The position numbers were made by a program, and so were the translations under genes. DNA of 64,000 bases, taken from positions 18,598-82,597 of the forward strand of contig JABILA010000006.1 of assembly GCA_018654745.1 (NCBI GenBank), given 5' to 3'. The notes below the pieces were generated by a model. That model was not told the DNA's origin, ran no database searches, and worked only from the letters and a program-made list of their open reading frames with translations. This document shows positions 36,411 through 60,204 of the stretch, piece by piece. Numbering within the stretch: the stretch's first letter is position 1; each line of letters begins with the position of its first letter. This DNA comes from Alphaproteobacteria bacterium. GTDB taxonomy: Bacteria > Pseudomonadota > Alphaproteobacteria > UBA2966.

Positions 36411-36569
36411 CTTCTGCTGGCTGACATGGCTGAGAGGTTATTAAAATGATCTGGATCACAACCGGATTGAGGTAAACCGGCCATACGAGCAGCAAATCTT
36501 CACTTATGGACAAGAGAACCCGCCAATCTGATTGACTGATCAGTGGTTTCCGTCCTAAATATCCGCCAG

Positions 36570-36710
36570 CTTGAAGGTACCGTTTCCGAAGACATTGTCG
36601 CTCGGGGACGGATTAAACGGGAAGACAGGTTTTAATCCTGCACTGCCCACGCAACGGTGAACCTCCTGATCGGGGCAAGTCCGGAACCGGCCTCTGAGTG
36701 AAGACCTTTT
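36570..36710 (+). promoter_or_regulatory. cobalamin (AdoCbl) riboswitch aptamer upstream of cobU-cobT-cobS
   Basis: Contains ...AACGGGAAGACAGGTTTTAATCCTGCACTGCCCACGCAACGGTGAACC... (B12 box GCACTGCCCACGCAACGGTGA) followed by the AAGTCCGGAACCGGCC element. Confidence 0.75.
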
Positions 36711-36819: not shown

Positions 36820-37401
36820 ATGAGCAACGTGATGAACGCTTCGGCAAACAATGAACTGACTTTTATTTTCGGCGGCGCCCGTTCGGGCAAAAGCCGCTTT
36901 GCTGAATCGTTTGCGCTGTCACAGGCATCCGAAAAGAACCTTGAACCCATTTATGTGGCGACGGGTGAAATTCGGGATGAAGAAATGCGTCAGCGCATTG
37001 AGCATCATCAAAAAAGTCGCGACCCCCGCTGGCAAACACTTGAAGAACCCTTGCGATTGAGCGAATTGATCCTTCGTGAGAGTACGACGGAAAGAGTGTT
37101 GTTGATCGACTGTCTGACGCTTTGGCTGAGTAATCAGCAGGAACAACAGGCAAATATATCAACCGAAACGCTGTCCCTTTGTCAGGCCCTTCAACAGGCC
37201 AAAGGTCCCATCGTCCTGGTAAGCAACGAAGTTGGCCTGGGGATCGTCCCGGCCAACGAACTCGCGCGCCACTTCCGTGATGAGGCTGGTCGCCTGAACC
37301 AGGCAATCGCCGCTGTTTGTCAAAATGTCTATCTCGTCGCCGCGGGATTGACCCTCCCCCTCAAAACCAACAATGTCCCTTTGGGACCGGAGATCCCCTG
37401 A
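36820..37401 (+). CDS. cobU: adenosylcobinamide kinase / adenosylcobinamide-phosphate guanylyltransferase
   Basis: P-loop FIFGGARSGKS and the CobU/CobP fold. Alternative start at 36832. Confidence 0.85.
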   Translation: MSNVMNASANNELTFIFGGARSGKSRFAESFALSQASEKNLEPIYVATGEIRDEEMRQRIEHHQKSRDPRWQTLEEPLRLSELILRESTTERVLLIDCLTLWLSNQQEQQANISTETLSLCQALQQAKGPIVLVSNEVGLGIVPANELARHFRDEAGRLNQAIAAVCQNVYLVAAGLTLPLKTNNVPLGPEIP

Positions 37402-38424
37402 ATGTCAAAACTTTCTTTTATTTCTGCTGCAGATCTGGCCGCCGCCCTTGCTTCCATGCCCGAAGCAGATGATGCCGCAGCTTCACTGGCCCGCGCGCGC
37501 CAGGAACAACTGACCAAACCCGTCGGCTCGCTGGGCCGCCTGGAAGAACTCGCCATCTGGATGGCATCGTGGCAAGGACAGGAAAAGCCGCAACTGGAAA
37601 ACCCGGCCTGTCTGGTATTTGCCGGCAACCATGGTGTCGCCGCGCGCGGTGTTTCTGCTTATCCCCCGGAAGTGACCTTTCAAATGGTCATGAATTTCGA
37701 AGCCGGTGGTGCCGCCATCAACCAGTTGACCAATCTTGCTGATGCAACCTTGAAAGTGACAGCCCTGGATCTGGATACCCCGACCCAGGACTTCACCCAA
37801 ACCGCCGCCATGACTGAGGCCGAATGCTGTGCCGCATTGCAGGCAGGCGCCGACGCTGTGCCTGACAATGCAGACATGGTTCTGGTCGGTGAAATGGGTA
37901 TCGGCAATACCACGGCCGCAGCAGCCGTTTGCAACGCTGTTTTTGGTGGCGCTGCCACCGACTGGATTGGCCCTGGAACCGGTGTCGACGACAAAGGTAT
38001 GGCAATCAAAAAAGAAACTGTTACAACGGCCATTGCCTTGCACGGTGACAATCAAACCAGTGCCTTTGAATGTCTGCGCACAGTCGGTGGACGTGAACTG
38101 GCGGCTATTGCTGGTGCCGTCATCGAGGCACGCCATCGTGGTATTCCGGTTCTTTTGGATGGCTATATTTCAACGGCAGCGGCTTCGGCATTGACCCGCG
38201 ATAACCCTGCCGCCCTGGATCATGCAATTATTTCCCACGTGTCCATGGAACCCGGCCACAAGCGACTGGCTGAAAAACTCAATCAACGCCCTGTACTGGA
38301 TCTGGATTTGCGTCTTGGTGAAGCCAGTGGTGCAGCAATTGCCCTGCTGATCGTCCGGGCGGCACTTGCAACGCACAATGGCATGGCCACATTCGGGGAA
38401 GCCGGTGTCAGTACGGCATCATAA
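37402..38424 (+). CDS. cobT: nicotinate-nucleotide--dimethylbenzimidazole phosphoribosyltransferase
   Basis: 340 aa. PVGSLGRLEELAIW and GEMGIGNTT motifs of CobT. Confidence 0.9.
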   Translation: MSKLSFISAADLAAALASMPEADDAAASLARARQEQLTKPVGSLGRLEELAIWMASWQGQEKPQLENPACLVFAGNHGVAARGVSAYPPEVTFQMVMNFEAGGAAINQLTNLADATLKVTALDLDTPTQDFTQTAAMTEAECCAALQAGADAVPDNADMVLVGEMGIGNTTAAAAVCNAVFGGAATDWIGPGTGVDDKGMAIKKETVTTAIALHGDNQTSAFECLRTVGGRELAAIAGAVIEARHRGIPVLLDGYISTAAASALTRDNPAALDHAIISHVSMEPGHKRLAEKLNQRPVLDLDLRLGEASGAAIALLIVRAALATHNGMATFGEAGVSTAS

Positions 38425-39181
38425 CCACCTCCAGGATTTGGCAGCAGCCTTTGTCCTGCTGACCAGAATTCCGCTGCGCTGGGATCGGTTCTCCGATGGC
38501 TCACCCGATTTCAACCGGGCCGTCTGGGCTTTCCCTGTCGTCGGCGCGTTCGTCGCTATTGTAGCAGCGGTGACATTTGCCATGGCGACCAGCTTCGGGC
38601 TTCCCGGGCTGGTCGCTGGCGCATTGGCAATCGTGGCAATGGTTTTGTTAACAGGGGCCTTTCATGAAGATGGGCTCGCCGATGTTGCAGATGGTTTCGG
38701 TGGCGGTAAATCCTTGCCCCGGAAACTGGAGATCATGCGTGACAGCCGCGTCGGTGCTTATGGCGTCATCGCCATCGTCCTGGCCATGATCTTGCGCGTT
38801 AGCGGCTTGTCCGTGCTTGCGGCTGGCGATGCTGCCTCTGCCTTGATCGTCTCGGCCATGCTGTCGCGCCTGATGATGGTTTATATCATGCGCTATATGC
38901 CCCCGGCCCGTAAGGATGGCCTGGCACATGATACCGGCAAACCGGAAATGCCACAGTTGCTGACAGGCACAGTTCTGACATTTGTTGTCTGTCTTTTTCT
39001 GCTGGGGCCATCGACAACGGTTGCCTGCTTCATTGTCGCTTTCGTCGCCTGTGTTGCGATCGGCGGTTTGGCAATGCACCAGATCAACGGTTTTTCCGGC
39101 GATGTCCTGGGAGCATCCCAACAGATAACAGAGATCGCCGTACTGTTGTTCCTCGTTGGAAGCTGGGGAGCCGCTGCATGA
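38366..39181 (+). CDS. cobS: adenosylcobinamide-GDP ribazoletransferase (cobalamin synthase)
   Basis: Integral membrane protein. LTRIPLRW N-terminal motif, HEDGLAD, DSRVGAYG. True start uncertain (overlaps the cobT 3' end). Confidence 0.8.
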   Translation: MQRTMAWPHSGKPVSVRHHNHLQDLAAAFVLLTRIPLRWDRFSDGSPDFNRAVWAFPVVGAFVAIVAAVTFAMATSFGLPGLVAGALAIVAMVLLTGAFHEDGLADVADGFGGGKSLPRKLEIMRDSRVGAYGVIAIVLAMILRVSGLSVLAAGDAASALIVSAMLSRLMMVYIMRYMPPARKDGLAHDTGKPEMPQLLTGTVLTFVVCLFLLGPSTTVACFIVAFVACVAIGGLAMHQINGFSGDVLGASQQITEIAVLLFLVGSWGAAA

Positions 39182-39885
39182 GCAATTTCGAGAGCATTCA
39201 ACTGTCTGACGCAGGCCTGAATTTACAGGCGGCATTCAATATCGCCGATCTGCCAGATCATGTTACAAAAACCCTTGGCACCCATTGTGAAGATTTCGGG
39301 GCGTTCCATCAGCTTTTGCTTGTGGCTCACGGTGGGCGCGCCATGTGGGAGGCTGTCAGCAACACAGGCTTTACCACGGATAATCCCATAGACGAGCATG
39401 CCGTAAACGCTGTTGGGCAATATTTCGAAACAGAGCATCCCGACAGTAATTATGAAATTGTCTATCCCGGCAATTTCCCTATCGGCCTGCGAGATCTGGG
39501 TGATCTGGCTGGCTGGCATCACGACAGCCCTTTCCGCGTCGGCATTCACGCCGATTGGGGTACCTGGTTTGCCTATCGCGCGGTCATTCTGACTGACACC
39601 AATTTCACACCGACCGTCGCGACCCCAACGATCTCGCCTTGCGACGAATGTATCGACAAACCTTGTATTTCTATCTGTCCGGCTAAAGCGGTGGCAGAAG
39701 AAGCTCTTGATCTGGAGAGATGTCTGGATCATCGCCTGCTGGAGAAATCCAGTTGTGTTGATACGTGCCTGTCACGCCTCGCTTGTCCGGTTGGGGCTGA
39801 ACACCGCTATACGAAGGACCAGGTCAACTATCACTATGGTCGGTCCATGAAAGTTATTCGTGAGTTGCGACGACCCCGGTCCTGA
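39178..39885 (+). CDS. uncharacterised Cys-rich (putative Fe-S/metal-binding) protein co-transcribed with cobU-cobT-cobS
   Basis: 235 aa. ATGA overlap with the cobS stop. C-terminal cysteine clusters CDECIDKPCISICP and CLDHRLLEKSSCVDTCLSRLACP. No family recognised. Confidence 0.4.
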   Translation: MSNFESIQLSDAGLNLQAAFNIADLPDHVTKTLGTHCEDFGAFHQLLLVAHGGRAMWEAVSNTGFTTDNPIDEHAVNAVGQYFETEHPDSNYEIVYPGNFPIGLRDLGDLAGWHHDSPFRVGIHADWGTWFAYRAVILTDTNFTPTVATPTISPCDECIDKPCISICPAKAVAEEALDLERCLDHRLLEKSSCVDTCLSRLACPVGAEHRYTKDQVNYHYGRSMKVIRELRRPRS

Positions 39886-39911: not shown

Positions 39912-40535
39912 CTAAAAATCGAGACCGCGTGCAGCTTTGATGCCTGCATCAAACGGGTGTTTGACCTTTTTCATTTCAGTGACCAGGTCAGCGGCATCCA
40001 TCAATATCTCCGGTGCATCCCGTCCGGTGACAATGACATGTGTTCGCTTGCTGCGACTTTGCAATCCGGTAACGACCTCGGCAGCATCAAGGTATTCATG
40101 ACGCAACACGATATTCAACTCGTCCAGCATTACCAGATCGTAGTCCCCGCTTTGCATCATTTCCAATGAGACCTGCCAGGCCTTTTGTGCCGCCGCGATG
40201 TCACGCTCCCGGTCCTGGGTTTCCCAGGTAAAGCCCTCTCCCATAACTTCATATCGGACAAGGTCGCCCAGTTTTGCGAAAAATTGCTTTTCGCCGGTTT
40301 TCCAGTTTCCTTTGACATATTGAACAATACCAACCGTATGCCCCCAACCGATTGCCCGGATAACGGTACCAAAGGCGGCTGTTGATTTACCTTTGCCCTC
40401 ACCGGTATTCACCACCAGCAAACCATGATCCGTTTTGGATTTGGTTTTCATGGTGGCGCGGTGTTCTGCCTGGCGTTCTTTCATCGACTCTGTGTGAGTT
40501 TGGTTCACAGCGGTTTCGTTTTTACTTTCGGTCAT
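39912..40535 (-). CDS. cobO: cob(I)yrinic acid a,c-diamide adenosyltransferase (CobO/BtuR type)
   Basis: LVVNTGEGKGKSTAAFG P-loop. 207 aa. Last gene of the minus-strand cob/btu operon. Confidence 0.85.
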   Translation of the reverse strand: MTESKNETAVNQTHTESMKERQAEHRATMKTKSKTDHGLLVVNTGEGKGKSTAAFGTVIRAIGWGHTVGIVQYVKGNWKTGEKQFFAKLGDLVRYEVMGEGFTWETQDRERDIAAAQKAWQVSLEMMQSGDYDLVMLDELNIVLRHEYLDAAEVVTGLQSRSKRTHVIVTGRDAPEILMDAADLVTEMKKVKHPFDAGIKAARGLDF

Positions 40536-40553: not shown

Positions 40554-41576
40554 TCAAGAACAAGTATCAAGGGCGGATTCAAGGCGCAAGAACTGATCGT
40601 TCGTCGCAGGCAATCCAAATCGCAAATATTGATCATCTTCAACAAATGACCGGACGTATATACCGTTGCGAGCCAGCGTCTCGGCAATTTCGGCTGCTTC
40701 CTCAGATCGGGTCAGACAAAATAGATCGGTCGATCCAGATATCTGTAACCCGGCCTGAGATAATATATCTCGCAAACGGTCGCCATCCTGTTTCAGTCGT
40801 TGGCGCGTCTGAACAATCCAGCTTTCATCTCGCAGCGCATGACCGGCAATCAGCAGGGCCGGGCCGTTTACCTGCCATGGCCCCAGCATATCACGCATTT
40901 CTTCCCGTAGAGCCCCGGCGGCCCGGAACATACCGATTCGCAAACCGGCAAGTCCGAAGAACTTTCCAAGAGAGCGCAGCAGGACAATATTTGAAGGCAA
41001 TGTTCGACCCGCAAGCGATTGTTCTGGCAAAACATCACAGAAGGCTTCATCAACGATCAGGAAACTGTCCTGATCACGTAAACGCGCTGCCAGTGCAATA
41101 AGGTCGTCCGGATCAAACAGGTGCCCGTCCGGGTTGTTGGGATTGGTTACGATCAAGACCTGTCGCGCTGGAAACGGCCGCTGGAAAAGCTCAGTTGCAT
41201 CTATGCGGGATACAGGTCTGCCGGCCTTTTGCCAGACCCTGACATGCTCACCATAGGTTGGGTCCGGCAAACAGACACCGTAATCGGGAAACAGGTTTGG
41301 CAACAGATTGATCACGGCCTGTGACCCTGCAGCCAGCGTCCATTCATCCGGGGTCCCGGTTTTCAGATAGCCGGTCCAGGCGTCGTGGCAAAAATTAAAT
41401 CCATTCTGATTCGGTAAATATGTCGTCGCTGCCATGATGTCATTCGGCGACACATTGTCTTGCCACGGCCAAGGCCGTGGGTTCAATCCGGTTGACAAAT
41501 CCAGCCAGGGTTTGGGCGCTTCAGGATATCGCACCTGTATTCGAGACAATTCACCGCCATGCCTGATTGCCGTCAT
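40554..41576 (-). CDS. cobC: L-threonine-O-3-phosphate decarboxylase (aminotransferase class I/II fold; CobC in P. denitrificans naming, CobD in Salmonella naming)
   Basis: Start set at Met 41576, which forms an ATGA overlap with the upstream gene stop (the ORF track extends to 41618). PLP-enzyme fold with LRSLGKFFGLAGLRIG (Lys). Confidence 0.8.
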   Translation of the reverse strand: MTAIRHGGELSRIQVRYPEAPKPWLDLSTGLNPRPWPWQDNVSPNDIMAATTYLPNQNGFNFCHDAWTGYLKTGTPDEWTLAAGSQAVINLLPNLFPDYGVCLPDPTYGEHVRVWQKAGRPVSRIDATELFQRPFPARQVLIVTNPNNPDGHLFDPDDLIALAARLRDQDSFLIVDEAFCDVLPEQSLAGRTLPSNIVLLRSLGKFFGLAGLRIGMFRAAGALREEMRDMLGPWQVNGPALLIAGHALRDESWIVQTRQRLKQDGDRLRDILSQAGLQISGSTDLFCLTRSEEAAEIAETLARNGIYVRSFVEDDQYLRFGLPATNDQFLRLESALDTCS

Positions 41577-42526
41577 GCGAAGCTCCAACCTGTCAGAGCC
41601 AAAACCATAATCAGCCATGCGGAAACGGTAATGCGGATGGCCCGCGATAAGGATTGATTATTTGTATCACCACCCGTCCCGAACCACGCCCCATCGACAA
41701 CCAGATTATCGGGGTAAGTGCGTGGCCCCCCAAGGCGCACATCAAGGGCTCCTGCCATGGCGGCTTCGGGCCAGCCCGCGTTGGGTGAAGCGTGTAACCT
41801 GGCTTGTTGCCAGGCCGTTGAAAGCGCCTGTCTGCCGCGCCCCGGAACAATCGCAGCACCCGCAAACAAAATTGCTGTCAGTCGTGCAGGCACCAGGTTC
41901 ATCACATCATCCAGACGTGCCGCAGCCCAGCCAAAGTACAAATAGCGATCGTTGCGATGACCGATCATGCTGTCGGCTGTATTGACCATTTTATAAACCA
42001 GAAGTCCGGGTAATCCGGCCACCAGAAACCAGAAAGCCGGTGCGGTCACGCCATCTGAAAAGTTCTCGGCCAGGCTTTCAATCGCGGCCCGGCTAATCGC
42101 GGCTTCATCCAGTTGATCCGTCTCACGCCCTATGATTTTGCCAACAGCGGTGCGCGCCGGGTCAAGGTCGGAAGTTTTTTCCAGGGCCACCCGCACCTCT
42201 TCGACATGGTCATAGAGACTGCGGGCAGCCATCAGTATGGCGACGATCACAACGAGGATCAGTGCGCCCGCTTCCAATTGCGACAAGGCAAGTTCAATTC
42301 CAAGGCCGATCAGGGTCATGACTAAAATGGCAGCAACAATAACGACGATACCACCCATTCGCCTGGCGTCAGGCTGCCAGTCGGTCCGGTTCAACCAGCG
42401 TTCCCCCGTCATCAGGAAACCAGACATCAGAACAACCGGGTGCGGCAGCTTCTGATAGATCCACTTTGGCTCCCCCGCCAGGGCATCCAGGCCAAGGGCC
42501 AGAGCCAAAATGAGACTTACGCTCAT
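41573..42526 (-). CDS. cobD: adenosylcobinamide-phosphate synthase (CobD/CbiB)
   Basis: Membrane protein of 317 aa. CbiB-type N-terminus (LILALALGLDALAGEP). Confidence 0.85.
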   Translation of the reverse strand: MSVSLILALALGLDALAGEPKWIYQKLPHPVVLMSGFLMTGERWLNRTDWQPDARRMGGIVVIVAAILVMTLIGLGIELALSQLEAGALILVVIVAILMAARSLYDHVEEVRVALEKTSDLDPARTAVGKIIGRETDQLDEAAISRAAIESLAENFSDGVTAPAFWFLVAGLPGLLVYKMVNTADSMIGHRNDRYLYFGWAAARLDDVMNLVPARLTAILFAGAAIVPGRGRQALSTAWQQARLHASPNAGWPEAAMAGALDVRLGGPRTYPDNLVVDGAWFGTGGDTNNQSLSRAIRITVSAWLIMVLALTGWSFA

Positions 42527-43989
42527 GACGACATGGCCTTGTACAACGCGTCGATATCAAGGTGCTGTTCCATGGCCTCAGCCAGCACATCCAGAGCCTC
42601 GTCTACGCGGTGCCCATATCTGGTTTGATGTTGTACGCCGCCGCGAAACGGGGCCAGATATCGCGCCCGAAACAGATCATCGCTGAACAATCCGTGCATA
42701 TATCCGCCTGCAACAGTGCCATCCGCCGAGCAAGCGCCGGGGCTGCGGCCATCGACTTGCAGGAAGGGCCGTTGATCGACATCGGGTCCAACCGTCAGCC
42801 CCACATGGATTTCGTATCCTGTGGCAGAACAATCAAAGGTCGGACAATGGGCGGTTGTCTGTTGAACTGTTTTCCCGGGCTTCATGGTTGTTGAGACATC
42901 GAGCAAACCAAGCCCATTGATTGACATCGGCGCGCCATCCACTCCATCCGGGTCGTCTATACGATGGCCCAGCATTTGATAGCCGCCACAAATGCCCAAT
43001 ACGTGACCGCCGCGTCGATTGTGGGCAAGCAAGTCAATGTCCCAGCCTTGTTCGCGCATGAAACCCATATCAGCAGTCGTCGATTTTGTGCCTGGGATCA
43101 TGACAATTCGCGCCTCGGCGGGTAGTGGCTGGCCGGGCGGAATAAAGCGGACGGTCACATCGGGTTCCGCTTGCAACGGGTCGACATCATCGAAGTTCGC
43201 GATCCGTGACAGCATGGGAACAGCAACAAGAATATCGTTTTGCCCGGTGGCCTGACTTTGTTCCAGAACAACCGCGTCTTCTGCTGGCAGTTCGCGGACG
43301 GCAGGGACATGAGGCAACACACCAAACGATGGCCACGCCGTTCGGTCTTCAATCGCCTTCAAACCTTCATCAAACAGGCTGAGGTCACCGCGAAATTTGT
43401 TGATCAAAAAACCGCAAATCAGTTTTTGTTCTTCCGGTGCCAGCAAGGATCCTGTGCCCACGAGCGAGGCAATCACACCGCCACGATCAATATCCCCGAT
43501 CAAAACAACTGGCGTATTGGTCGCGGTCGCAAACCCCATATTGGCAATATCCCCTGCCCTGAGGTTAATTTCCGCAGGACTTCCCGCCCCTTCGACCAGG
43601 ACAATATCTGCCCGGTTTTTTAGAATTTCAAAACTCTCGATGACAGTTTCTAGCAAAGCCTGACGATGGGAGCGATAATATTCCGCGCCGACAGTGTCGG
43701 TCACTTTGCCGCGCACAACGACTTGAGATCCGACATCTGATTGCGGCTTTAATAATACCGGGTTCATATGAACATCTGGCTCGACCTTGCAGGCAACGGC
43801 TTGCAAAGCCTGGGCGCGACCAATTTCGCCGCCGTCTGGCGTTACGGCAGCATTATTGGACATGTTCTGGGGCTTGAAAGGCAATACCTTATGGCTCCTG
43901 TTCAGAAATACCCTGCACAGCCCGGCCACAATCACGGATTTGCCGACATCCGACCCTGTACCCTGAAACATCAAGGTTCTGGCGGTCAT
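42523..43989 (-). CDS. cobQ: cobyric acid synthase
   Basis: 488 aa. N-terminal ATPase (FQGTGSDVGKS) plus a C-terminal glutamine amidotransferase (ICGGYQMLG). Confidence 0.9.
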   Translation of the reverse strand: MTARTLMFQGTGSDVGKSVIVAGLCRVFLNRSHKVLPFKPQNMSNNAAVTPDGGEIGRAQALQAVACKVEPDVHMNPVLLKPQSDVGSQVVVRGKVTDTVGAEYYRSHRQALLETVIESFEILKNRADIVLVEGAGSPAEINLRAGDIANMGFATATNTPVVLIGDIDRGGVIASLVGTGSLLAPEEQKLICGFLINKFRGDLSLFDEGLKAIEDRTAWPSFGVLPHVPAVRELPAEDAVVLEQSQATGQNDILVAVPMLSRIANFDDVDPLQAEPDVTVRFIPPGQPLPAEARIVMIPGTKSTTADMGFMREQGWDIDLLAHNRRGGHVLGICGGYQMLGHRIDDPDGVDGAPMSINGLGLLDVSTTMKPGKTVQQTTAHCPTFDCSATGYEIHVGLTVGPDVDQRPFLQVDGRSPGACSADGTVAGGYMHGLFSDDLFRARYLAPFRGGVQHQTRYGHRVDEALDVLAEAMEQHLDIDALYKAMSS

Positions 43990-44786
43990 GACGAGCCTGG
44001 CAGAACCGTCCTGTCTGATCGATCAATCAGGGTCAGGAAAGATGTTCCGTTATGTTCGGTCCTTGCCATGCGGACACCATAAGCCTGGTCCAGCCGCTGA
44101 TCGGTAAAGACTTCGTCCGGTGTGCCTTTGGCCAAAACATCGCCGTCATGCAAAAGGAATATCCTGTCGCAGTAACGTTGCGCCAGAGACAGATCGTGAA
44201 GCACAATTACGATGCCATGATCCTGTTGCGCCATCTCGGCAAGAATATCGAGAACCTGCAGCTGGTGGTATGGATCAAGTGCAGCAACCGGTTCATCCGC
44301 CAGTAAATAAGGTGCGCCAACCGCGATGGCCCGCGCCAGCAAGGCACGCGCTTTCTCACCACCCGACAATGTCGTCGCGATGCGGTGGCGAAGCCCGATC
44401 ATGTCGGTTACCTCAAGGGCGTGTTCAACCACATCCATATCAGCCTGTGTCGGTTTGCTCCAGGGGGCAAGGTGTGGTGTACGTCCGATCCCCACCAGTC
44501 TTTCCACCGGTAACATCCAGTGCATCTCGGCCCCTTGCGGCGCATAAGCGACTTTGCTGGCGATCTGGCGCGGCGTCATCTCTGACGTTGGCTGTCCATC
44601 GATGACAACATTTCCTGTCGGGCTTTTAATAATGCCGAGGACCGAACGCAACAAACTGCTTTTGCCCGACCCGTTCGCACCGACCAGGCCGACAAAGCTG
44701 CCGCGCTCGACCGAGAAGGATACATTTTCGAGCACCTTGTTATCGCCAAAGGTGACGCTGATATCGTTCGCTTCAAGCTTGCTCAC
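43986..44786 (-). CDS. btuD: ABC transporter ATP-binding protein, iron-siderophore/cobalamin (FecE/BtuD) type
   Basis: GTG start at 44786 with GGGAGA RBS and a GTGA overlap with the permease stop. The ORF-track N-terminal extension to 45050 overlaps the permease gene and is rejected. Walker A GANGSGKSS, signature LSGGE. Confidence 0.8.
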   Translation of the reverse strand: MSKLEANDISVTFGDNKVLENVSFSVERGSFVGLVGANGSGKSSLLRSVLGIIKSPTGNVVIDGQPTSEMTPRQIASKVAYAPQGAEMHWMLPVERLVGIGRTPHLAPWSKPTQADMDVVEHALEVTDMIGLRHRIATTLSGGEKARALLARAIAVGAPYLLADEPVAALDPYHQLQVLDILAEMAQQDHGIVIVLHDLSLAQRYCDRIFLLHDGDVLAKGTPDEVFTDQRLDQAYGVRMARTEHNGTSFLTLIDRSDRTVLPGSS

Positions 44787-45799
44787 CGGATTGTCTCCCG
44801 TGCGCGATATATGATGTAGAGAAATACTGGCGCGCCAATGAAAGCCGTCAAAACGCCCAACCGCAACTGGGTGTGTCCCAAGGGCAAGCGTGTGGCGATG
44901 TCTGCAAGGGTCAATAATATCGCACCACCGATGGCACTTGGCAGCAAAATGTTGCGGGGTTCCGATCCGAAAATCGCCCGCATGATATGGGGGACCACAA
45001 GTCCGATAAAGGCGATTGAGCCGCAGACAGCGACAGACGCGCCAACACACAAGGCTGTACCCAGAACAATCGTCCAGCGCATGCGGTTAATCTTGACGCC
45101 CAGCGAATGCGCCGCATCTTCCCCCAGGGCCAGGGCATTTAATCCTTGACCAACAGTTGCCAGTAACGCCCAGCCAACCAGCACAAATGGCAACATCATC
45201 ATCAAATCTTCGGTGGTCCGGTTCTCAAGTGAGCCCAACAGCCAGAACACCATGTCCCGCAGGGACATAGGGGTCGGCGCAAAATTCATCACCAGCGAGA
45301 TACAGCCCGTTGCAAGCGAACTTATGCCAATGCCCGAGAGGATCAGGGTCAGAACCCGGCCGTCCCTAGATGCCAGTGCAAACAGCATGACAATTGCAAT
45401 AAAGGAAGTTCCCATGGCCATAACCGGTATGGCGTAAATCCACATGGCGGAAAGACCAAGGTAAATAGCTGTTACAGCCCCGAGCCCGGCACTGGCCGAA
45501 ACGCCAATGATGCCAGGGTCCGCCAGAGGATTGCGCAACAAGCCTTGTAGTGCGGCACCGGACAATCCCAGGGATGCTCCGGCACACAGGCCAATCAGGA
45601 CGCGGGGTAGTCTGAGTTCCTGAACAATCGTCGTCAGGGCAATATCGGCACTGCCAAATAATCCGGCGATAACCTCACCGCTTTGCAACGGGGCCTGGCC
45701 AAAAAACAGTGAACCAAACGCACAGGCCAGAAGCAACATGAAAGCTGCAGGCAATCGAAAATGTAGCCACACCGGGTTTGTCGCCTGGGCCTGGATCAC
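44783..45799 (-). CDS. btuC: FecCD-family ABC permease (BtuC-like)
   Basis: 338-aa multi-TM protein with the FecCD family pattern. Confidence 0.85.
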   Translation of the reverse strand: MIQAQATNPVWLHFRLPAAFMLLLACAFGSLFFGQAPLQSGEVIAGLFGSADIALTTIVQELRLPRVLIGLCAGASLGLSGAALQGLLRNPLADPGIIGVSASAGLGAVTAIYLGLSAMWIYAIPVMAMGTSFIAIVMLFALASRDGRVLTLILSGIGISSLATGCISLVMNFAPTPMSLRDMVFWLLGSLENRTTEDLMMMLPFVLVGWALLATVGQGLNALALGEDAAHSLGVKINRMRWTIVLGTALCVGASVAVCGSIAFIGLVVPHIMRAIFGSEPRNILLPSAIGGAILLTLADIATRLPLGHTQLRLGVLTAFIGAPVFLYIIYRARETIR

Positions 45800-46677
45800 G
45801 AGGACTTCCCCCTGGATTGTTGCGCGGCTTTGATCGCGTTGAGCTTGTCGACAACAAATTCTGCCGCGTCAACAAACGTAAAGGCCCGGCACGCCAACAA
45901 TCGACCCGGCACGAATATAGTCGGAATGTCCTTGAACATGCGTTTGACCACGGGATGGCGAAGCAGGCCCCAGTCAGAATGATGCACCGCTTTGCTGTCA
46001 AAAAAAGCGCCGATGATTACATCAGGCGGATCGACGATTAATGCTTCCAGTGGCAGGGTCCGCCAACCTTTCAGTCCCATGTCCGCAACCGCATTTCGCA
46101 TACCGGCCAGTCTGATAACTTCATCACCAAATGTCCCGGCGGCAGCCGTTGTGCCTCCCGCGGATAAATATATGGCGCGAAGTTTGCCCGTGCTGGACTG
46201 CTGTAGTTTTTGCAATCTGGCTTTGTAGACCTTGATGAATTCCTCACCAGCCTTTTCCCGCCCAAAGACCTTGGAAAACATCGCTACATTCTGGAAAACA
46301 TCATCGGTCTTCAGACCGGTTCTGGCTGAAACAACCTTTATGCCTGCCTGCTTCAGGTACGATCGCATACTGGCATTACCGCCCCAGTAGCGGATGACGA
46401 CATCAGGCTGCACATAAAGAAATTCTTCAATGCTGCCGGTTGTTCTTGGCAGCCCTTTGGCCCTGGATTTGTAGAAGGAATAATCCTGAATGGCCCGGTG
46501 CGACAGTGACGCAATTTGACTTCTGTCCGCCAGAGCCAATGCATATTGGTCCGAACAGTGATCCAGCGAGGAAATCCGTGGTAGCGCGTCCTGTGCCCGT
46601 GCAGGTTCCGCAACTAGTACAAAGGCGGTTGCCATCAATGCCGCCATCTGAATTCCCAAAGAGAAATCTATTTTCAC
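45796..46677 (-). CDS. btuF: periplasmic substrate-binding protein of the cobalamin/iron-siderophore ABC type (BtuF-like)
   Basis: Signal peptide plus a class III SBP body. Lies between cobB and btuC in a riboswitch-controlled operon. Confidence 0.75.
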   Translation of the reverse strand: MKIDFSLGIQMAALMATAFVLVAEPARAQDALPRISSLDHCSDQYALALADRSQIASLSHRAIQDYSFYKSRAKGLPRTTGSIEEFLYVQPDVVIRYWGGNASMRSYLKQAGIKVVSARTGLKTDDVFQNVAMFSKVFGREKAGEEFIKVYKARLQKLQQSSTGKLRAIYLSAGGTTAAAGTFGDEVIRLAGMRNAVADMGLKGWRTLPLEALIVDPPDVIIGAFFDSKAVHHSDWGLLRHPVVKRMFKDIPTIFVPGRLLACRAFTFVDAAEFVVDKLNAIKAAQQSRGKSS

Positions 46678-48020
46678 CCAAGTACTCCGTTGTTCTTGCC
46701 GCTTTTGAATATATCAGCAATCGCTGCAGGACAGGAGGGGAAATAGAAATGCACGTAACTGGCAACAAGGTTACCTACTGAATAGATCGCTTCACCTGGT
46801 TTGTTCAGTCGAACGGAAGTGGCACGTGCAACTGATTCAAGCGGTGTTTCCAGGGAGGAATAATGAAAGGTATGTCCGCGCAAAACACCGCTGGACATCG
46901 CCAGAGACTGTGCGCCAATTGCCGACAGTTTCGAATTGAGCTTGCCATGCCCAGGCAAAAGGCCTGCCATCTCCGCTTTTTTTCCGTCGACGCCTTCCAG
47001 AATATCCAGCAAATACAACAGGCCACCACATTCAGCCAAAATCGGGGTACCGGCTTCGTGTGCTGCCTTCATCGCAATTTTCATGGCAAGGTTTTGAGCC
47101 AGCTGATCCAGATGTAATTCCGGGTATCCACCAGGCAACCAGATCGCATCGCATTCCGGCAGCGTAATATCATTCAATGGTGAAAAGAATTTAACCTCCG
47201 CGCCCATGGCTTTGAGGCAACGAATGTTCGCAGCATAGGCAAATGAAAAGGCAGCATCATTTGCACAGGCAATGGTCATGCCCTCCAGATGTTGATCTAC
47301 AACATTCGGCTCACCGGAAACAAATTCGATTTCCTGCGGCAATTCGGCAAGCCGGGTCCCTTCGATCTGTTCAGCCAGGCGATCCAGCCGAACGTCCAGG
47401 TCTGAAATCTCGGCAGCCTGGAACAGACCAAGATGGCGGTCAGGCAGAACGGCTTCATTATCTCGCAGCATATGACCAAGATAGGGCACACCATCCGTTA
47501 GTGTTTCCGAAAGCATATCTGCATGCCCTGGACTGCCAACCTTGTTCGCCATAACACCGGCAAATGCCAATTCAGGATCATAGGTCGTAAATCCATGCAC
47601 AATCGCGCCAAAGCTTTGTGCCATGCCGCTGGCATCAACGGTCAACAAAACAGGCAGACCAAATTTCTTTGCAAGATCAGCACTGCTGGGGCTGCCGTCA
47701 TAAAGACCCATCACGCCTTCCACCAGGATCAGATCTGACTGGCTTGCAGCATCAGCCAATAGGGTCTGACAGGTCTCTTCGCCAACCATCCACAGATCAA
47801 GTTGCTCAACTCCGGCGCCACTTGCTTTTTCGAGGATCGTGGGATCGATAAAATCCGGCCCTGTCTTGAAGACCCGGACCCGCCGCCCCTGGTTGCGGTG
47901 GTATCGGGCCAGGGCAGCGGTGACCGTCGTTTTCCCCTGATTGGATGCAGGTGCCGCAACCATCATCGCCGGGCAACTTGCCCGGCGATCCGTTGAAGCT
48001 TCTTGAGCAGTCACTGACAT
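46674..48020 (-). CDS. cobB: cobyrinic/hydrogenobyrinic acid a,c-diamide synthase (CobB/CbiA)
   Basis: 448 aa. N-terminal ATPase (APASNQGKTTVTAAL) plus a C-terminal GATase domain. Confidence 0.85.
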   Translation of the reverse strand: MSVTAQEASTDRRASCPAMMVAAPASNQGKTTVTAALARYHRNQGRRVRVFKTGPDFIDPTILEKASGAGVEQLDLWMVGEETCQTLLADAASQSDLILVEGVMGLYDGSPSSADLAKKFGLPVLLTVDASGMAQSFGAIVHGFTTYDPELAFAGVMANKVGSPGHADMLSETLTDGVPYLGHMLRDNEAVLPDRHLGLFQAAEISDLDVRLDRLAEQIEGTRLAELPQEIEFVSGEPNVVDQHLEGMTIACANDAAFSFAYAANIRCLKAMGAEVKFFSPLNDITLPECDAIWLPGGYPELHLDQLAQNLAMKIAMKAAHEAGTPILAECGGLLYLLDILEGVDGKKAEMAGLLPGHGKLNSKLSAIGAQSLAMSSGVLRGHTFHYSSLETPLESVARATSVRLNKPGEAIYSVGNLVASYVHFYFPSCPAAIADIFKSGKNNGVLG

Positions 48021-48022
48021 CG

Positions 48023-49882
48023 TTAGTCCGCGTCTGGAACGTAGCGCAATCTGAGGAAATAATTGCGCTCGTCCTGGTTAAAGAATGAGGCCGTTTGATA
48101 GTCTTCGTCGAAGATATTGTTGGCACTCAATTCGACACTCCAATTGGGCTTGATCGCATAGGCACCGCGAAGATCAACCGTTTTGTAAGCGTCCAGCTTC
48201 CGGCTGTTGCTGGCGTTATCATACGCCACACCTGCATAACGCAATGTTGCACCGGCCTTGAAGTCATCAATTTGTCGACTGACCGTCACATTCGTTTGCC
48301 ATTTGGGCCGTCGTGTCAGCTGGTTATCTCGATTGGATCCGTCTGCGCGATTTTTGGCATCAATATAATTGGCGTTGCCATTTATATCCCACTTGGCCCA
48401 TGTCATGCGACCTTCAGCTTCGACGCCCCGAATGCGGGCTGAATTGATGTTGCCGGCCAATGATGTGTCTGAATCAAACGCGATCAGGTCTTTGACGTTT
48501 GTCTGGTAGGCGTAAACCGCCCAGGTACCAAGGCTTTGTGTACCGCGTACACCAACTTCATAGGACCTGGATTCTTCCGGCCTGTTTGAGGTCGAGCCGA
48601 AACCCGGAAAATACAATTCATTGAACGTTGGTGCATTATAGGCTGTGCCATAGCTCGCCAACACTTCCAGATCAGGCCGTATGTTATAGCCCCAGGCAAG
48701 ACTTCCTGTGTAATGATTGCCAAATTGCTCGTTATCGTCACCGCGCAAACTGAGCTGCGTATTGTGATCGCCAAATTCACCTATGTACTGACCAAATGCA
48801 CCATAGTTGTACCGCTCGGTCTCTGCATAGGACGTGGTGCTGTCGACTTTATCGTTCAGATAGTCCACGCCAACAACAACCGTATCCGTGTCGGAGACGC
48901 TGACGTTGTTTTGCCAACTGACATTGTCCCGCACGGTATTAAACTTTGAGGAAAAGGCACCGTTAAAATAGTTACTGCCCAAATCCCAGCTGCGCGCAGC
49001 TGTAACCTTGATGTCCCAGATGTCGTTGATACCTTTATCGGCATTTACACCCAGCAGGCGCTGTTTGTCCTTCGAGGAATTCTGTGAACTGCCATCAAAT
49101 TCCGTTGTATCGTTGGCAACCTGAGCCAGCAGTTCCAGCTCAAAATCATTTTCGAATTCATGCGATACGCTGCCCGAAAACGATCGTTGTTTATAGCCAT
49201 CCTTGTCCGTTTCGATAACACGACATCCGCTGGCAGGTTTGGTCTGACCATCGCCACAACTGTTGAACCCGTCCGAACGACGAAAGCCAACATTGGCGGC
49301 GAATTGGGTCTTGCCGGAACTGCCGGTTATGCCTGTATTGGCTTCTACAGTGTTGTGACTGCCATAACCGATGGAGCCGGAATGTCTGGTTTTTTTGCTG
49401 CCCTTGCGGGTGAATATCTGAACAACACCGCCAATGGCACTTGATCCATAAAGATGCGACCGCGGGCCCCGAACGATCTCGATACGTTCAATCTGGTCAA
49501 CCGGGATGTGCTGAAGTGAAACCTGACCGGACGTTGCCGATCCGACACGAGCGCCATCAATAAGGACCAGAACGTGATTGTTTTCAGAACCACGCAGGGA
49601 AATTGTTGTGGATTTACCAAGGCCACCACTGTTGACCATCGATATACCTGGTAAATCCCGTACCAGATCCTGAATATCCTTGGGCTGCTTTTCTTCGATC
49701 GCTTCACGGGTGATGACGGTCACCGGTGACAAACTTTCATCAACGGTTTGGGCGATCCTGGAACCGGTTACAATGATTTCCTTGTTCGCGGAAATGTCTG
49801 CCGCCTGGGCAGCTAATGGCAGGACCATGGAACCGGCAACAATTACCAGTTTCCAGCCCAGGCCTTGGGTCGAAATCTTCAT
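48023..49882 (-). CDS. btuB: TonB-dependent outer-membrane receptor, vitamin B12/corrinoid type (BtuB-like)
   Basis: Signal peptide, TonB box (EIIVTGSR), plug domain and a C-terminal aromatic residue (F) after the 22-strand barrel region. Directly downstream of a B12 riboswitch. Confidence 0.85.
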   Translation of the reverse strand: MKISTQGLGWKLVIVAGSMVLPLAAQAADISANKEIIVTGSRIAQTVDESLSPVTVITREAIEEKQPKDIQDLVRDLPGISMVNSGGLGKSTTISLRGSENNHVLVLIDGARVGSATSGQVSLQHIPVDQIERIEIVRGPRSHLYGSSAIGGVVQIFTRKGSKKTRHSGSIGYGSHNTVEANTGITGSSGKTQFAANVGFRRSDGFNSCGDGQTKPASGCRVIETDKDGYKQRSFSGSVSHEFENDFELELLAQVANDTTEFDGSSQNSSKDKQRLLGVNADKGINDIWDIKVTAARSWDLGSNYFNGAFSSKFNTVRDNVSWQNNVSVSDTDTVVVGVDYLNDKVDSTTSYAETERYNYGAFGQYIGEFGDHNTQLSLRGDDNEQFGNHYTGSLAWGYNIRPDLEVLASYGTAYNAPTFNELYFPGFGSTSNRPEESRSYEVGVRGTQSLGTWAVYAYQTNVKDLIAFDSDTSLAGNINSARIRGVEAEGRMTWAKWDINGNANYIDAKNRADGSNRDNQLTRRPKWQTNVTVSRQIDDFKAGATLRYAGVAYDNASNSRKLDAYKTVDLRGAYAIKPNWSVELSANNIFDEDYQTASFFNQDERNYFLRLRYVPDAD

Positions 49883-50004
49883 GAAGATACTCCGTTCGTT
49901 CGCCTTGAATGGCGTTAATTACGAACGGCGATGTCAGGGGTGTCAGGGATGCGGTCAAAAAACCATATCATTCCTGCCGAGCCGCCCCACGCAGCGCCGC
50001 AATG

Positions 50005-50235: not shown

Positions 50236-50237
50236 AG

Positions 50238-50272
50238 GCAGTATTTAGAGAACTTGCCCTGATATTGTCAAG
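50238..50272 (-). promoter_or_regulatory. candidate sigma70 promoter for the minus-strand riboswitch/btuB operon
   Basis: Minus strand TTGACA-18 nt-TAAATA, immediately upstream of the riboswitch aptamer. Confidence 0.3.
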
Positions 50273-60189: not shown

Positions 60190-60204
60190 GTGTCTGATCT
60201 CCGT

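What the first reader, a model, noticed from the sequence alone, without database searches (positions are those of the whole stretch)
39178..39885. Uncharacterised Cys-rich protein fused into the cobU-cobT-cobS riboswitch operon
This 235-aa ORF overlaps the cobS stop codon (ATGA), so it is almost certainly co-transcribed and co-regulated with the nucleotide-loop assembly genes. It has no recognisable family. It carries two clusters of cysteines (CDECIDKPCISICP; C-x11-CVDTC-x5-CP) reminiscent of Fe-S or metal-binding sites, and a conserved-looking HADWGTWFAYRAV segment. It could be a redox or metal-handling accessory for lower-ligand activation or attachment, or for corrinoid remodelling.
Basis: partly seen in the sequence, partly recalled or inferred. 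Interest (0 to 1): 0.6.

Follow-up and report, generated by a model that had tools for sequence, protein, structure and literature searches.

The report
Bacterial CblC-like iron-sulfur B12-processing protein
The last gene of this vitamin-B12-repressed operon encodes an uncharacterised bacterial relative of the human B12-processing enzyme CblC (MMACHC) that carries its own two-cluster iron-sulfur module, so it may be how many bacteria strip and reduce salvaged B12, a step usually treated as having no CblC-type enzyme in bacteria.

Summary

Linkage to cob genes is not universal: about 12 of 80 genome loci. Where present it occurs in six different cob/btu arrangements, most often next to cobO. 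A large sister subfamily sits next to the corrinoid methyltransferase genes mtgB/mtgC.

Best reading (about 0.5): a corrinoid-processing reductase that binds free corrinoid, removes the upper ligand, reduces the cobalt through its Fe-S clusters, and passes the product to CobO or to corrinoid proteins. No biochemistry exists. I class it as a new variant of a known kind, interest about 0.7.

The parts
36558..36709 (+). Cobalamin riboswitch aptamer heading the cobU-cobT-cobS-X operon
   Evidence: Rfam RF00174, 56.8 bits (gathering score 31.5), E 2e-11. Riboswitches in the equivalent position occur in L001 and L088.
36820..37401 (+). cobU (adenosylcobinamide kinase / guanylyltransferase)
   Evidence: Pfam CobU 3.1e-59; NCBIfam NF004469 207.5 bits, above the 161-bit cut-off.
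37402..38424 (+). cobT (nicotinate-nucleotide:DMB phosphoribosyltransferase)
   Evidence: Pfam DBI_PRT 1.5e-111; TIGR03160 375.9 bits, above the 319.3-bit cut-off.
38366..39181 (+). cobS (adenosylcobinamide-GDP ribazoletransferase). The true start is probably the GTG at 38405, as in the 258-aa orthologues.
   Evidence: Pfam CobS 7.6e-51; TIGR00317 132.7 bits, above the 110-bit cut-off. Orthologue gene calls are 258 aa. The stop codon overlaps the start of X.
39178..39885 (+). X: the 235-aa CblC-like iron-sulfur protein, the finding itself
39178..39627 (+). Residues 1-150: CblC/MMACHC-like (nitroreductase-fold) putative corrinoid-binding module
   Evidence: hhalign of family alignment A3 against MMACHC alignment A4: 95.8% probability, E 7e-9, X 66-151 aligned to MMACHC 74-178. 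Collinear over X 2-228 with greedy settings.
39505..39579 (+). Residues 110-134: LAGWHH...WGTWFAYR block shared with MMACHC (VAG...W...GGWFAIR)
   Evidence: X W113, G128, W130, F131, A132 and R134 align with MMACHC W140, G155, W157, F158, A159 and R161. These positions are invariant within family alignment A1 and in the vertebrate MMACHC alignment; G128, W130 and R134 remain invariant across both subfamilies. G155, W157 and R161 are human cblC disease positions (PMC9464900).
39640..39681 (+). Residues 155-168: first cysteine motif, C-x2-C-x4-C-x3-C-P
   Evidence: C155, C158, C163, C167 and P168 are invariant in both subfamilies. They align with the E. coli QueG cluster motif. Weak Fer4_11, LdpA and DmsB-type hits.
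39721..39789 (+). Residues 182-204: second cysteine motif, C-x10-C-x3-C-x5-C-P
   Evidence: C182, C193, C197 and C203 are invariant in both subfamilies, as is R200. C182 aligns with the first Cys of QueG's second motif.
39799..39882 (+). Residues 208-235: C-terminal helix with an RYxxxQxxY motif resembling MMACHC 213-223
   Evidence: Helix 213-231 in the model. Local hhalign of the C-terminal segments gives E 1e-4 over 14 columns, which is weak. Y211 is invariant and R210 and Q215 nearly so.
39912..40535 (-). cobO/btuR (ATP:cob(I)alamin adenosyltransferase), convergent with X and 26 nt away. It is the proposed recipient of the reduced corrinoid.
   Evidence: Pfam CobA_CobO_BtuR 6.4e-64; NF004637 255 bits, above the 185-bit cut-off. 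cobO is adjacent to X in L008, L040, L011, L074 and L088 and in the P0001 and P0002 contexts.
40554..49882 (-). Rest of the convergent salvage and late-synthesis operon: cobD (threonine-phosphate decarboxylase), cbiB, cobQ, btuD, btuC, btuF, cobB, btuB
   Evidence: Pfam and NCBIfam hits. The orthologous cluster has the same gene order.
49998..50245 (-). Cobalamin riboswitch heading the btuB...cobO operon
   Evidence: RF00174, 97.8 bits.

Best explanation
X is a bacterial counterpart of the eukaryotic B12-processing enzyme CblC/MMACHC in which the helical cap is replaced by a two-[4Fe-4S] ferredoxin module, the same wiring QueG and reductive dehalogenases use to reach Co(I).

Proposed mechanism. 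Every step is inferred; only the fold, sequence and gene context are shown.
1. Free corrinoid, either imported by BtuBFCD or made by the late pathway, binds base-off in the CblC-like pocket.
2. A low-potential donor such as ferredoxin or flavodoxin feeds electrons through the two clusters to the cobalt.
3. The upper ligand (cyanide, water, possibly an alkyl group, perhaps with glutathione held by the conserved Arg134) is removed reductively, and the cobalt is taken to Co(II) or Co(I).
4. The reduced corrinoid passes to the adenosyltransferase CobO. In the Rhizobiaceae/Paracoccus subfamily it passes to the corrinoid protein MtgC.

In this window X would fill the only missing step of an otherwise complete late pathway (CobB, CobN-like, CobO, CobQ, CobD, CbiB, CobU, CobT, CobS, probable CobC). 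That step is the corrin reduction normally assigned to the unrelated flavoprotein CobR.
For: Fold:
- The model of the sister subfamily (pLDDT 83.1) gives MMACHC 14.2, CeCblC 12.6 and QueG 9.3, with nitroreductases below 5.

Sequence:
- Profile-profile against MMACHC: 95.8-96.1% probability, E 3e-9 to 7e-9.
- Residues invariant in the MMACHC alignment and in the X family coincide: P70/D72 = P78/D80, P97 = P109, A111 (and G112 in subfamily A) = A124/G125, G128/W130/R134 = G155/W157/R161. R161, G155 and W157 are human disease positions (PMC9464900).
- Eight Cys are invariant down to about 25% identity and align with QueG's cluster ligands.

Regulation:
- A B12 riboswitch lies upstream in the window, L001 and L088, and in a different operon architecture in L039. 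This fits a protein that supplies B12, not one that uses it.

Context, six distinct cob/btu arrangements across Alpha-, Beta- and Gammaproteobacteria:
- cobU-T-S-X
- cobQ-X-cobO
- cbiB-cobD-X
- X convergent with cobO
- cobU-btuF-X
- Methylibium ...cobS-cobC-2H-X

Sister subfamily (hhalign 99.5%, E 5.7e-23): it lies directly after mtgB and divergent from the B12-binding mtgC in Sinorhizobium, Rhizobium, Shinella and Paracoccus.

Pathway hole: no CobR-type flavin reductase appears among the window ORFs scanned, nor in the Pfam- or RefSeq-annotated X-containing cob clusters.

Against: - There is no biochemical or genetic evidence at all. Corrinoid binding, Fe-S binding and activity are all inferred.
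- About 68 of 80 genome loci have no cob or btu gene within 10 kb, and seven stand-alone loci tested have no riboswitch. There the neighbours are uninformative: dacB, DUF1456, DEAD helicase. Two single cases are RNA-modification genes, TrmK and a pseudouridine synthase.
- The MMACHC loop carrying Tyr129 to Gln131, where Gln131 hydrogen-bonds cobalamin, is missing from X.
- X scores below every curated threshold: PF16690 13.4 bits against 27, TIGR00276 23.8 against 200, Fer4_11 14.7 against 26.2.
- The second Cys motif has unusual spacing.
- In vitro, corrin reduction can be achieved without a dedicated reductase, using FldA/MSR or free reduced flavin with the adenosyltransferase (PMC4083273), so the pathway hole is a soft one.
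- The cob-linked arrangements may not all be independent events.
Confidence: 0.5

Rival explanations
1. X is a cofactor-type 'class III' cobalamin/[4Fe-4S] reductase like QueG or RdhA. Cobalamin stays bound as a prosthetic group, and Co(I) attacks some unidentified small molecule or RNA nucleoside. Proximity to cob genes would then reflect only the enzyme's need for B12.
For: - The architecture, a corrinoid-binding module followed by two cluster motifs, is that of the QueG/RdhA catalytic core (PMC4646009).
- hhalign to E. coli QueG gives 89% probability, E 2.2e-6. The best NCBIfam hit is QueG. JGI names some members epoxyqueuosine reductase.
- Most copies stand alone like housekeeping enzymes.
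- One copy overlaps trmK, and one partner is a pseudouridine synthase.
Against: - Repression by a B12 riboswitch, seen in four loci and two architectures, is the opposite of what a B12-dependent enzyme needs (the logic of known riboswitch regulons is my own knowledge).
- There is no HEAT or other substrate-binding domain: the protein ends about 30 residues after the last Cys.
- QueG's Asp134 position falls on a variable residue, and the Tyr105-His106 'DYH' motif has no counterpart.
- X scores 23.8 bits against the 200-bit QueG cut-off.
- The sister subfamily's fixed position beside mtgB/mtgC points to handling corrinoid as cargo.
Confidence: 0.17
2. The N-terminal nitroreductase-like module binds a flavin, not a corrinoid. 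X would be a flavin/Fe-S electron carrier that indirectly supports B12 enzymes, for example by supplying electrons to CobO (as FldA does) or reduced flavin to a DMB synthase, or by reactivating corrinoid methyltransferases (a RamA/DUF1638-type role).
For: - The fold belongs to the nitroreductase superfamily, whose members mostly bind FMN.
- MMACHC itself uses a flavin as the reducing agent for decyanation (PMC6072759) and changes its oligomeric state in the presence of FMN (PMC9464900).
- X is next to cobO, or to the corrinoid methyltransferase reactivation genes.
Against: - The sequence blocks conserved with MMACHC include positions where human mutations impair cobalamin handling.
- No flavin-family Pfam hit was found.
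Confidence: 0.13
3. X is a nucleotide-loop enzyme, such as a non-orthologous alpha-ribazole-phosphate phosphatase or a lower-ligand activation or remodelling factor.
For: X is translationally coupled to cobS in the window and in close orthologues, and it follows cobS and cobC in Methylibium.
Against: - A histidine-phosphatase gene whose best match is alpha-ribazole phosphatase is present in the window, in the P0002 context and in Methylibium.
- In other lineages X is linked to cobQ/cobO, cbiB/cobD or btuF instead of cobT/cobS.
- The fold and the Fe-S module have no similarity to phosphatases or phosphoribosyltransferases.
Confidence: 0.04

Closest known systems
CblC / MMACHC (cyanocobalamin reductase / alkylcobalamin dealkylase; Pfam PF16690; PDB 3SOM, 3SC0, 9MRS, 5UJC)
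   Same: - Collinear profile-profile alignment at 96% probability.
- Shared conserved residues: P-x-D, P109, the (V/L)-A-G turn, W140, G155, W157, F158, A159 and R161. The C-terminal RYxxxQxxY helix is probably shared too.
- About the same size, around 235 aa of ordered core.
- Genomic placement fits the same job of preparing incoming B12 for the adenosyltransferase and the methyltransferase.
   Different: - Scores 13.4 bits against PF16690's 27-bit threshold.
- MMACHC's helical cap (about residues 180-208) is replaced by an eight-Cys, two-cluster module.
- The 14-residue MMACHC loop with Tyr129 to Gln131 is absent.
- Arg230 has no counterpart.
- The electron source would be Fe-S clusters, not a bound flavin.
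- It is bacterial, encoded in or near cob or mtg operons, and no CblD partner is evident.
QueG, epoxyqueuosine reductase (TIGR00276; PDB 5D08, 5D6S, 5T8Y)
   Same: - Same domain order: a corrinoid-binding nitroreductase-like module followed by two [4Fe-4S] motifs.
   Different: - No C-terminal HEAT-like tRNA-binding domain, and no Cbl-insert or Fd-insert.
- The catalytic Asp134, His106 and Tyr105 are not conserved.
- 23.8 bits against a 200-bit cut-off.
- First Cys motif is CX2CX4CX3CP and second is CX10CX3CX5CP, where QueG has CX2CX2CX3CP and C...CX2CX3CP.
- Repressed by B12 in cob operons.
Reductive dehalogenases (PceA 4UQU/4UR3; NpRdhA 4RAS/6ZXU)
   Different: - Half the size or less.
- No substrate-channel inserts, and no NpRdhA-type reductase domain.
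- No RR-type twin-arginine motif is visible at the N-terminus (read from the sequence; no predictor was run).
- No rdhB-like neighbour was seen.
CobR and PduS corrin reductases, and BtuM decyanase (functional analogues only)
   Same: They cover the same proposed pathway position. CobR and PduS reduce Co(II) to Co(I) ahead of the adenosyltransferase (PMC4083273, PMC2982820). BtuM decyanates CNCbl and cobinamide (PMC6072759).
   Different: There is no detectable homology. CobR is an HpaC-like flavoprotein, PduS is a flavin/Fe-S protein of a different fold, and BtuM is a membrane S-component that uses a cysteine ligand. None has a CblC-like module.

Membership tests
CblC / MMACHC (PF16690) | Scores above Pfam's gathering threshold for PF16690 | tested here: not met
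   13.4 bits, E 0.059, against a 27-bit cut-off; only residues 119-145 matched. Vertebrate MMACHC proteins all carry PF16690.
CblC / MMACHC (PF16690) | CblC-type nitroreductase-like fold as the closest structural neighbour | tested here: met
   [not shown]
CblC / MMACHC (PF16690) | Conserved core residues around the cobalamin pocket, including Gly155, Trp157 and Arg161 | tested here: met
   hhalign A3 against A4: 95.8% probability, E 7e-9. X G128, W130 and R134 align with G155, W157 and R161, invariant on both sides. Disease relevance from PMC9464900.
CblC / MMACHC (PF16690) | Loop with Tyr129/Tyr130/Gln131 (Gln131 hydrogen-bonds cobalamin) | tested here: not met
   MMACHC residues 126-139 form an insertion with no counterpart in X.
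CblC / MMACHC (PF16690) | Arg161-Arg206-Arg230 glutathione-binding triad | tested here: inconclusive
   R134 = R161 is robust. R200 = R206 appears only in the low-confidence part of the greedy alignment, although R200 is invariant. R230 falls in a gap.
CblC / MMACHC (PF16690) | C-terminal helical cap, no metal cluster; flavin- and GSH-dependent chemistry | tested here: not met
   In X an eight-Cys ferredoxin-like module occupies the cap position.
CblC / MMACHC (PF16690) | Base-off cobalamin binding with decyanase and dealkylase activity | not testable with these tools
   Needs purified protein and spectroscopy.
QueG epoxyqueuosine reductase (TIGR00276) | Scores above the NCBIfam equivalog cut-off | tested here: not met
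   23.8 bits against 200; residues 122-196 only.
QueG epoxyqueuosine reductase (TIGR00276) | Corrinoid-binding module followed by a two-[4Fe-4S] module | tested here: met
   [not shown]
QueG epoxyqueuosine reductase (TIGR00276) | C-terminal HEAT-like tRNA-binding domain (Bs 257-385) | tested here: not met
   X ends at residue 235, about 30 residues after the last Cys, with a single helix. Domain definition from PMC5175355.
QueG epoxyqueuosine reductase (TIGR00276) | Catalytic Asp134 and Tyr105-His106 (B. subtilis numbering) | tested here: not met
   Mapping through the E. coli/B. subtilis alignment and hhalign puts Asp134 at X position 98, which is variable (G/S/A/P/T/H/D/Q). No DYH motif is present. 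Caveat: that stretch lies just outside the confidently aligned region.
Reductive dehalogenase RdhA | Large catalytic subunit (400-700 aa) with substrate-channel inserts, a TAT signal with an RdhB anchor, or a fused reductase | tested here: not met
   [not shown]
Bacterial 2x[4Fe-4S] ferredoxin domain (Fer4 clan) | Two CX2CX2CX3CP-type motifs scoring above a Fer4 family threshold | tested here: inconclusive
   Fer4_11 14.7 bits against 26.2, and LdpA_Fe-S-bd 16.6 against 27.6. The motifs are CX2CX4CX3CP (DmsB/HybA-like) and the atypical CX10CX3CX5CP. All eight Cys are invariant. Cluster geometry was not checked because no coordinates were available.
CobR corrin reductase (flavin reductase, PF01613) | HpaC-like flavin reductase fold | tested here: not met
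   No such Pfam hit and a different fold. Any relationship would be functional analogy only.
B12-riboswitch-controlled cob regulon | Cobalamin riboswitch upstream, on the same strand, of the transcription unit containing the gene | tested here: met
   Window 36558-36709; L001, L088 and L039. Not met for seven stand-alone loci, nor for L008, L074 and L011 within the sequence held; in L085 none was found, but the locus begins only about 280 nt before the first operon gene.

The most novel reading that the evidence does not exclude
This family is the bacterial equivalent, and possibly the evolutionary precursor, of eukaryotic CblC. It would be a self-wired Fe-S corrinoid processing enzyme that removes upper ligands (cyanide, methyl, adenosyl, water) and makes Co(II) or Co(I) corrinoid for hand-off to CobO and to corrinoid methyltransferases. 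That would fill the 'missing corrin reductase/decyanase' step in many Proteobacteria. It would also be the structural link between the cargo-handling CblC and the cofactor-using class III enzymes QueG and RdhA.
Probability: 0.4. Interest if true: 0.85.

Novelty: new variant of a known kind. Interest (0 to 1): 0.72.

Why it matters
**Open question addressed.** How bacteria convert salvaged cyano-, hydroxo- or methyl-corrinoids into a form the adenosyltransferase can use is largely unassigned. The papers held name only BtuM as a bacterial decyanase and only Brucella CobR as a dedicated biosynthetic corrin reductase, and one states outright that bacteria lack CblC homologues.

**What this would add.** A widespread CblC-like protein with its own electron wire, encoded inside B12-repressed salvage operons and beside the MtgBCD betaine demethylase / methionine synthase system, is a concrete and testable candidate for that step. 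The family has 1,571 cluster representatives (50% identity) in the exhaustive search, and the sister-subfamily query found 3,177 clusters (90% identity).

**Wider relevance.**
- It would change pathway reconstructions that predict who can use which environmental B12 forms, including in marine bacteria.
- It offers a missing part for engineered B12 production.
- It gives an evolutionary bridge between the human disease protein MMACHC and the cobalamin/Fe-S reductases QueG and RdhA.

Tried and rejected
1. **Standard domain searches.** Pfam, NCBIfam and PDB sequence searches of the single protein gave only sub-threshold ferredoxin, QueG and MMACHC hints. They served as leads, not assignments.
2. 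**Replacement for the CobC phosphatase.** Rejected. A His_Phos_1 gene is present in the window, in the P0002 context and in Methylibium.
3. **True QueG.** Rejected on score, the missing HEAT domain and the missing catalytic residues.
4. **Universal cob linkage.** Rejected. Only about 12 of 80 genome loci are linked.
5. **Conserved non-cob neighbour that would reveal function.** Clustering and Pfam annotation of operonic partners gave only lineage-specific synteny: dacB in Rhodocyclales, DUF1456 in Zetaproteobacteria, DEAD helicase in Undibacterium. These were judged uninformative.
6. **Riboswitches on stand-alone copies.** None found in seven loci.
7. **Literature.**
   - 'cblX' returned only the human disorder.
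   - Searches for bacterial CblC-like or QueG-like proteins, and for a CblC/QueG/RdhA superfamily survey, found no description of this family.
   - The mlp gene-cluster preprint does not mention it.
   - The MtgBCD and split-MetH papers name RamA-like and DUF1638 proteins but not this gene.
8. **AlphaFold-database fold search.** The library was not available.
9. **Single-sequence hhalign against human MMACHC.** This gave only a 29-column match at 61% probability. Building alignments on both sides was needed to reach 96%.
Full report
**1. The observation**

The 235-aa ORF at 39178-39885 (+) exists. Its ATG overlaps the cobS stop codon as ATGA. Upstream on the same strand lie cobU, cobT and cobS, all with strong Pfam and NCBIfam matches. 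A cobalamin riboswitch sits at 36558-36709 (RF00174, 56.8 bits). No convincing terminator separates cobS from the ORF.

The quoted motifs are correct except that the second cysteine motif is C-x10-C-x3-C-x5-CP, not x11.

ORF length alone is weak evidence here, because spurious antisense ORFs of up to 217 aa occur nearby. The gene is real on other grounds:
- 508 homologues in the word-indexed search.
- 1,571 cluster representatives at E <= 1e-3 in the exhaustive profile search, 996 of them at E <= 1e-10, almost all 220-270 aa and aligned end to end.
- dN/dS = 0.145 against the syntenic 88%-identical orthologue.

**2. What the protein is**

Curated libraries give only sub-threshold hints: Fer4_11, MMACHC residues 119-145, and QueG residues 122-196.

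*Structure.* An AlphaFold2 model built on 30 homologues is confident (pLDDT 91.3, pTM 0.87).

| Search | Best matches | Next group |
|---|---|---|
| Foldseek, PDB | QueG, MMACHC/CblC, reductive dehalogenases fill the top ranks | - |

*Sequence.* I checked my recalled human MMACHC sequence against PDB 3SOM and it was identical. I then aligned 18 vertebrate MMACHC proteins and compared that profile with a 24-sequence alignment spanning both bacterial subfamilies. The result was 95.8% probability, E 7e-9, over 86 columns. With greedy settings the alignment is collinear over X 2-228 and MMACHC 9-235 (96.1%).

Conserved residues coincide on the two sides:

| X | MMACHC |
|---|---|
| P70, D72 | P78, D80 |
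| P97 | P109 |
| L-A-G 110-112 | V-A-G 123-125 |
| W113 | W140 |
| G128, W130, F131, A132, R134 | G155, W157, F158, A159, R161 |

Arg161, Gly155 and Trp157 are sites of human cblC disease mutations, and Arg161 anchors glutathione (PMC9464900).

*Differences from MMACHC.*
- The Tyr129-Gln131 loop is absent.
- The helical cap is replaced by C155-x2-C158-x4-C163-x3-C167-P and C182-x10-C193-x3-C197-x5-C203-P.
- All eight cysteines are invariant across both subfamilies, which are only about 25% identical.
- The first five cysteines align with the cluster ligands of E. coli QueG.

*Not a QueG.* X scores 23.8 bits against a 200-bit cut-off. It has no HEAT-like tRNA-binding domain. The catalytic Asp134 position maps to a variable residue, and there is no Tyr105-His106 motif.

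In short, X has a CblC-like core with the Fe-S wiring of class III cobalamin enzymes and no substrate-recognition domain.

**3. Genomic context**

*The window.* X is the last gene of the riboswitch-controlled cobU-cobT-cobS-X unit. It is convergent with cobO, 26 nt away. cobO ends a second riboswitch-controlled operon: btuB-cobB-btuFCD-cobQ-cbiB-cobD-cobO. A third riboswitch heads a CobN-like gene, and a probable CobC phosphatase lies nearby. Every late step from hydrogenobyrinic acid to AdoCbl is therefore represented except corrin reduction. No CobR-type flavin reductase, BluB, QueG or B12-dependent enzyme appears among the window ORFs scanned.

*Orthologues.* Those at 88%, 61% and 54% identity keep the arrangement, as does L001.

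*Across 80 reference-genome loci.* Only about 12 have cob or btu genes within 10 kb. Those 12, plus a plasmid hit, show six different arrangements:
- cobU-T-S-X
- cobQ-X-cobO (Hahellaceae, Oleiphilaceae)
- cbiB-cobD-X (Kangiellaceae, with a riboswitch upstream in L039)
- X convergent with cobO (Kordiimonadaceae)
- cobU-btuF-X (a Burkholderiales MAG)
- The Methylibium petroleiphilum megaplasmid, where X ends a 15-gene btuB...cobS-cobC operon. That copy is frameshifted.

*The remaining loci.* These are Rhodocyclales, Oxalobacteraceae and Zetaproteobacteria. X stands alone there with lineage-specific, uninformative neighbours (dacB, DUF1456, DEAD helicase). One locus has trmK. Seven loci tested have no riboswitch.

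*The sister subfamily.* A tblastn search of plasmid and chromid records found it (99.5% hhalign probability to the family). It comprises 3,177 clusters, named only 'ferredoxin' or '4Fe-4S dicluster domain-containing protein'. In Sinorhizobium, Rhizobium, Shinella and Paracoccus it lies immediately downstream of the MttB-family glycine betaine methyltransferase gene mtgB and divergent from the corrinoid protein gene mtgC. The same cluster holds DUF1638, MTHFR, the pterin-binding methyltransferase and, in Paracoccus, a RamA-like activase. The papers describing that system do not mention this gene (PMC12478193, PMC5764234).

The only functionally coherent associations of the family are therefore with corrinoid supply and with a corrinoid-dependent methyltransferase.

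**4. Mechanism proposed**

Shown:
- The fold and the homology to CblC.
- Eight invariant Cys arranged as in QueG/RdhA.
- B12-repressed expression in cob operons.
- Frequent adjacency to cobO.
- Adjacency of the sister subfamily to mtgB/mtgC.

Inferred:
- X binds free corrinoid base-off, as every structurally characterised member of this fold group does (PMC4646009).
- The two clusters relay low-potential electrons to the cobalt, removing the upper ligand and giving Co(II) or Co(I).
- The product goes to CobO or MtgC.
- The conserved Arg134, and possibly Arg200, may hold a thiol co-substrate as Arg161 and Arg206 do in MMACHC. This last point is speculative.

I put this reading at about 0.5.

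**5. Rivals**

| Rival | Confidence | Main argument against |
|---|---|---|
| Cofactor-type class III reductase on an unknown substrate | about 0.17 | Riboswitch repression, no substrate domain, closer to CblC than to QueG |
| Flavin-binding electron carrier | about 0.13 | Large structural gap to flavin nitroreductases |

**6. Comparison with what is known, and novelty**

The papers held say that bacteria have no CblC homologues (PMC5070874). They name BtuM as the bacterial decyanase (PMC12713380, PMC6072759). They identify CobR only in Brucella, and note that in vitro the reduction can be achieved with FldA/MSR or free reduced flavin (PMC4083273). No paper found describes a fourth member of the CblC/QueG/RdhA fold group.

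X fails the curated thresholds of all three families, and a defining feature of each is absent. I therefore do not file it as a member of any of them. It is a new family-level variant of the corrinoid-binding nitroreductase-like fold.

**7. Limits**

- There are no experimental data.
- Whole-genome co-occurrence with cobO, BtuM, CobR and QueG/QueH could not be computed.
- The different cob-linked arrangements may share ancestry.
- The paper library does not cover subscription journals.

**Verdict.** Novelty: a new variant of a known kind. Interest 0.72.

Noticed in passing
window 49998-50245 (-) and 50328-50488 (+): Two more cobalamin riboswitches sit back to back (97.8 and 62.3 bits). One heads the btuB-cobB-btuFCD-cobQ-cbiB-cobD-cobO operon and the other a CobN-like gene, so three riboswitches control one 20-kb B12 island.
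   Followed up: partly
window 50642-55458 (+): A riboswitch-controlled 1453-aa CobN/Mg-chelatase-like protein scores well below every NCBIfam CobN/BchH equivalog cut-off (593.8 bits against 1619). It is followed by a 152-aa MotA/ExbB-like ORF that overlaps it by 4 nt. No CobS/CobT-type chelatase partners appear in the window. Its role in a mainly salvage-type cluster is unclear.
   Followed up: no
window 55732-56526 (-): A histidine-phosphatase-family protein has alpha-ribazole phosphatase (TIGR03162) as its best NCBIfam match, but at 96.9 bits against a 162.9-bit cut-off. It is probably CobC, but this is unconfirmed.
   Followed up: partly
L085 (Methylibium petroleiphilum PM1 plasmid NC_008826.1) 13249-14700: The plasmid copy of the CblC-like gene is frameshifted after about residue 183, and RefSeq calls a 207-aa hypothetical protein. 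A '2'-5' RNA ligase family' (2H phosphoesterase) gene sits inside the cob operon between the cobC-like phosphatase and X. It has no NCBIfam hit.
   Followed up: partly
L086 8635-9339; L087 8956-9663; L092 8001-8702; L093 8001-8696: A large sister subfamily (3,177 clusters, annotated only as 'ferredoxin') is fixed immediately downstream of mtgB in the glycine betaine demethylase / split methionine synthase cluster of Rhizobiaceae and Paracoccus. In the three Rhizobiaceae loci (not Paracoccus) a NAGPA phosphodiester-glycosidase gene follows it. The papers describing that system do not mention it.
   Followed up: partly
L006, L012, L018, L028, L056, L060, L063, L068, L072 and other Rhodocyclales loci: A PBP4/DacB-type D-Ala-D-Ala carboxypeptidase gene (Peptidase_S13) lies directly upstream of the CblC-like gene on the same strand in 20 loci, overlapping it by 7 nt in most of them. 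This is an odd but lineage-restricted operon pairing.
   Followed up: partly
L090 8291-9699: In one metagenomic contig a TrmK tRNA methyltransferase gene overlaps the CblC-like gene by 4 nt. In Zetaproteobacteria (L081, L003, L025) the gene overlaps a DUF1456 gene, which in L081 is followed by the DbpA RNA helicase gene. These are the only hints of an RNA-related role.
   Followed up: no
window 57502-58641 (-) and 59698-60558 (+): ORFs of 379 aa and 286 aa have no Pfam or NCBIfam match. Both overlap other ORFs (57367-58023 and 58066-58575 on the + strand; the DctM-fusion gene at 60205-63033 on the - strand) and may be spurious.
   Followed up: no
window 34434-36410: An AraC/PAS regulator (34434-35141, - strand) and an FMN-dependent dehydrogenase-family gene (35343-36410, + strand) lie just upstream of the riboswitch. 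They are conserved in that position in the 88% orthologous contigs (L083 and a 41-kb JGI contig), but not in the P0002 or P0007 contexts.
   Followed up: no
window 43986-45050 (-): The mechanically listed btuD ORF is over-extended by about 88 codons into btuC. Orthologue gene calls (266 aa) imply a start near 44786, overlapping the btuC stop by 4 nt.
   Followed up: partly
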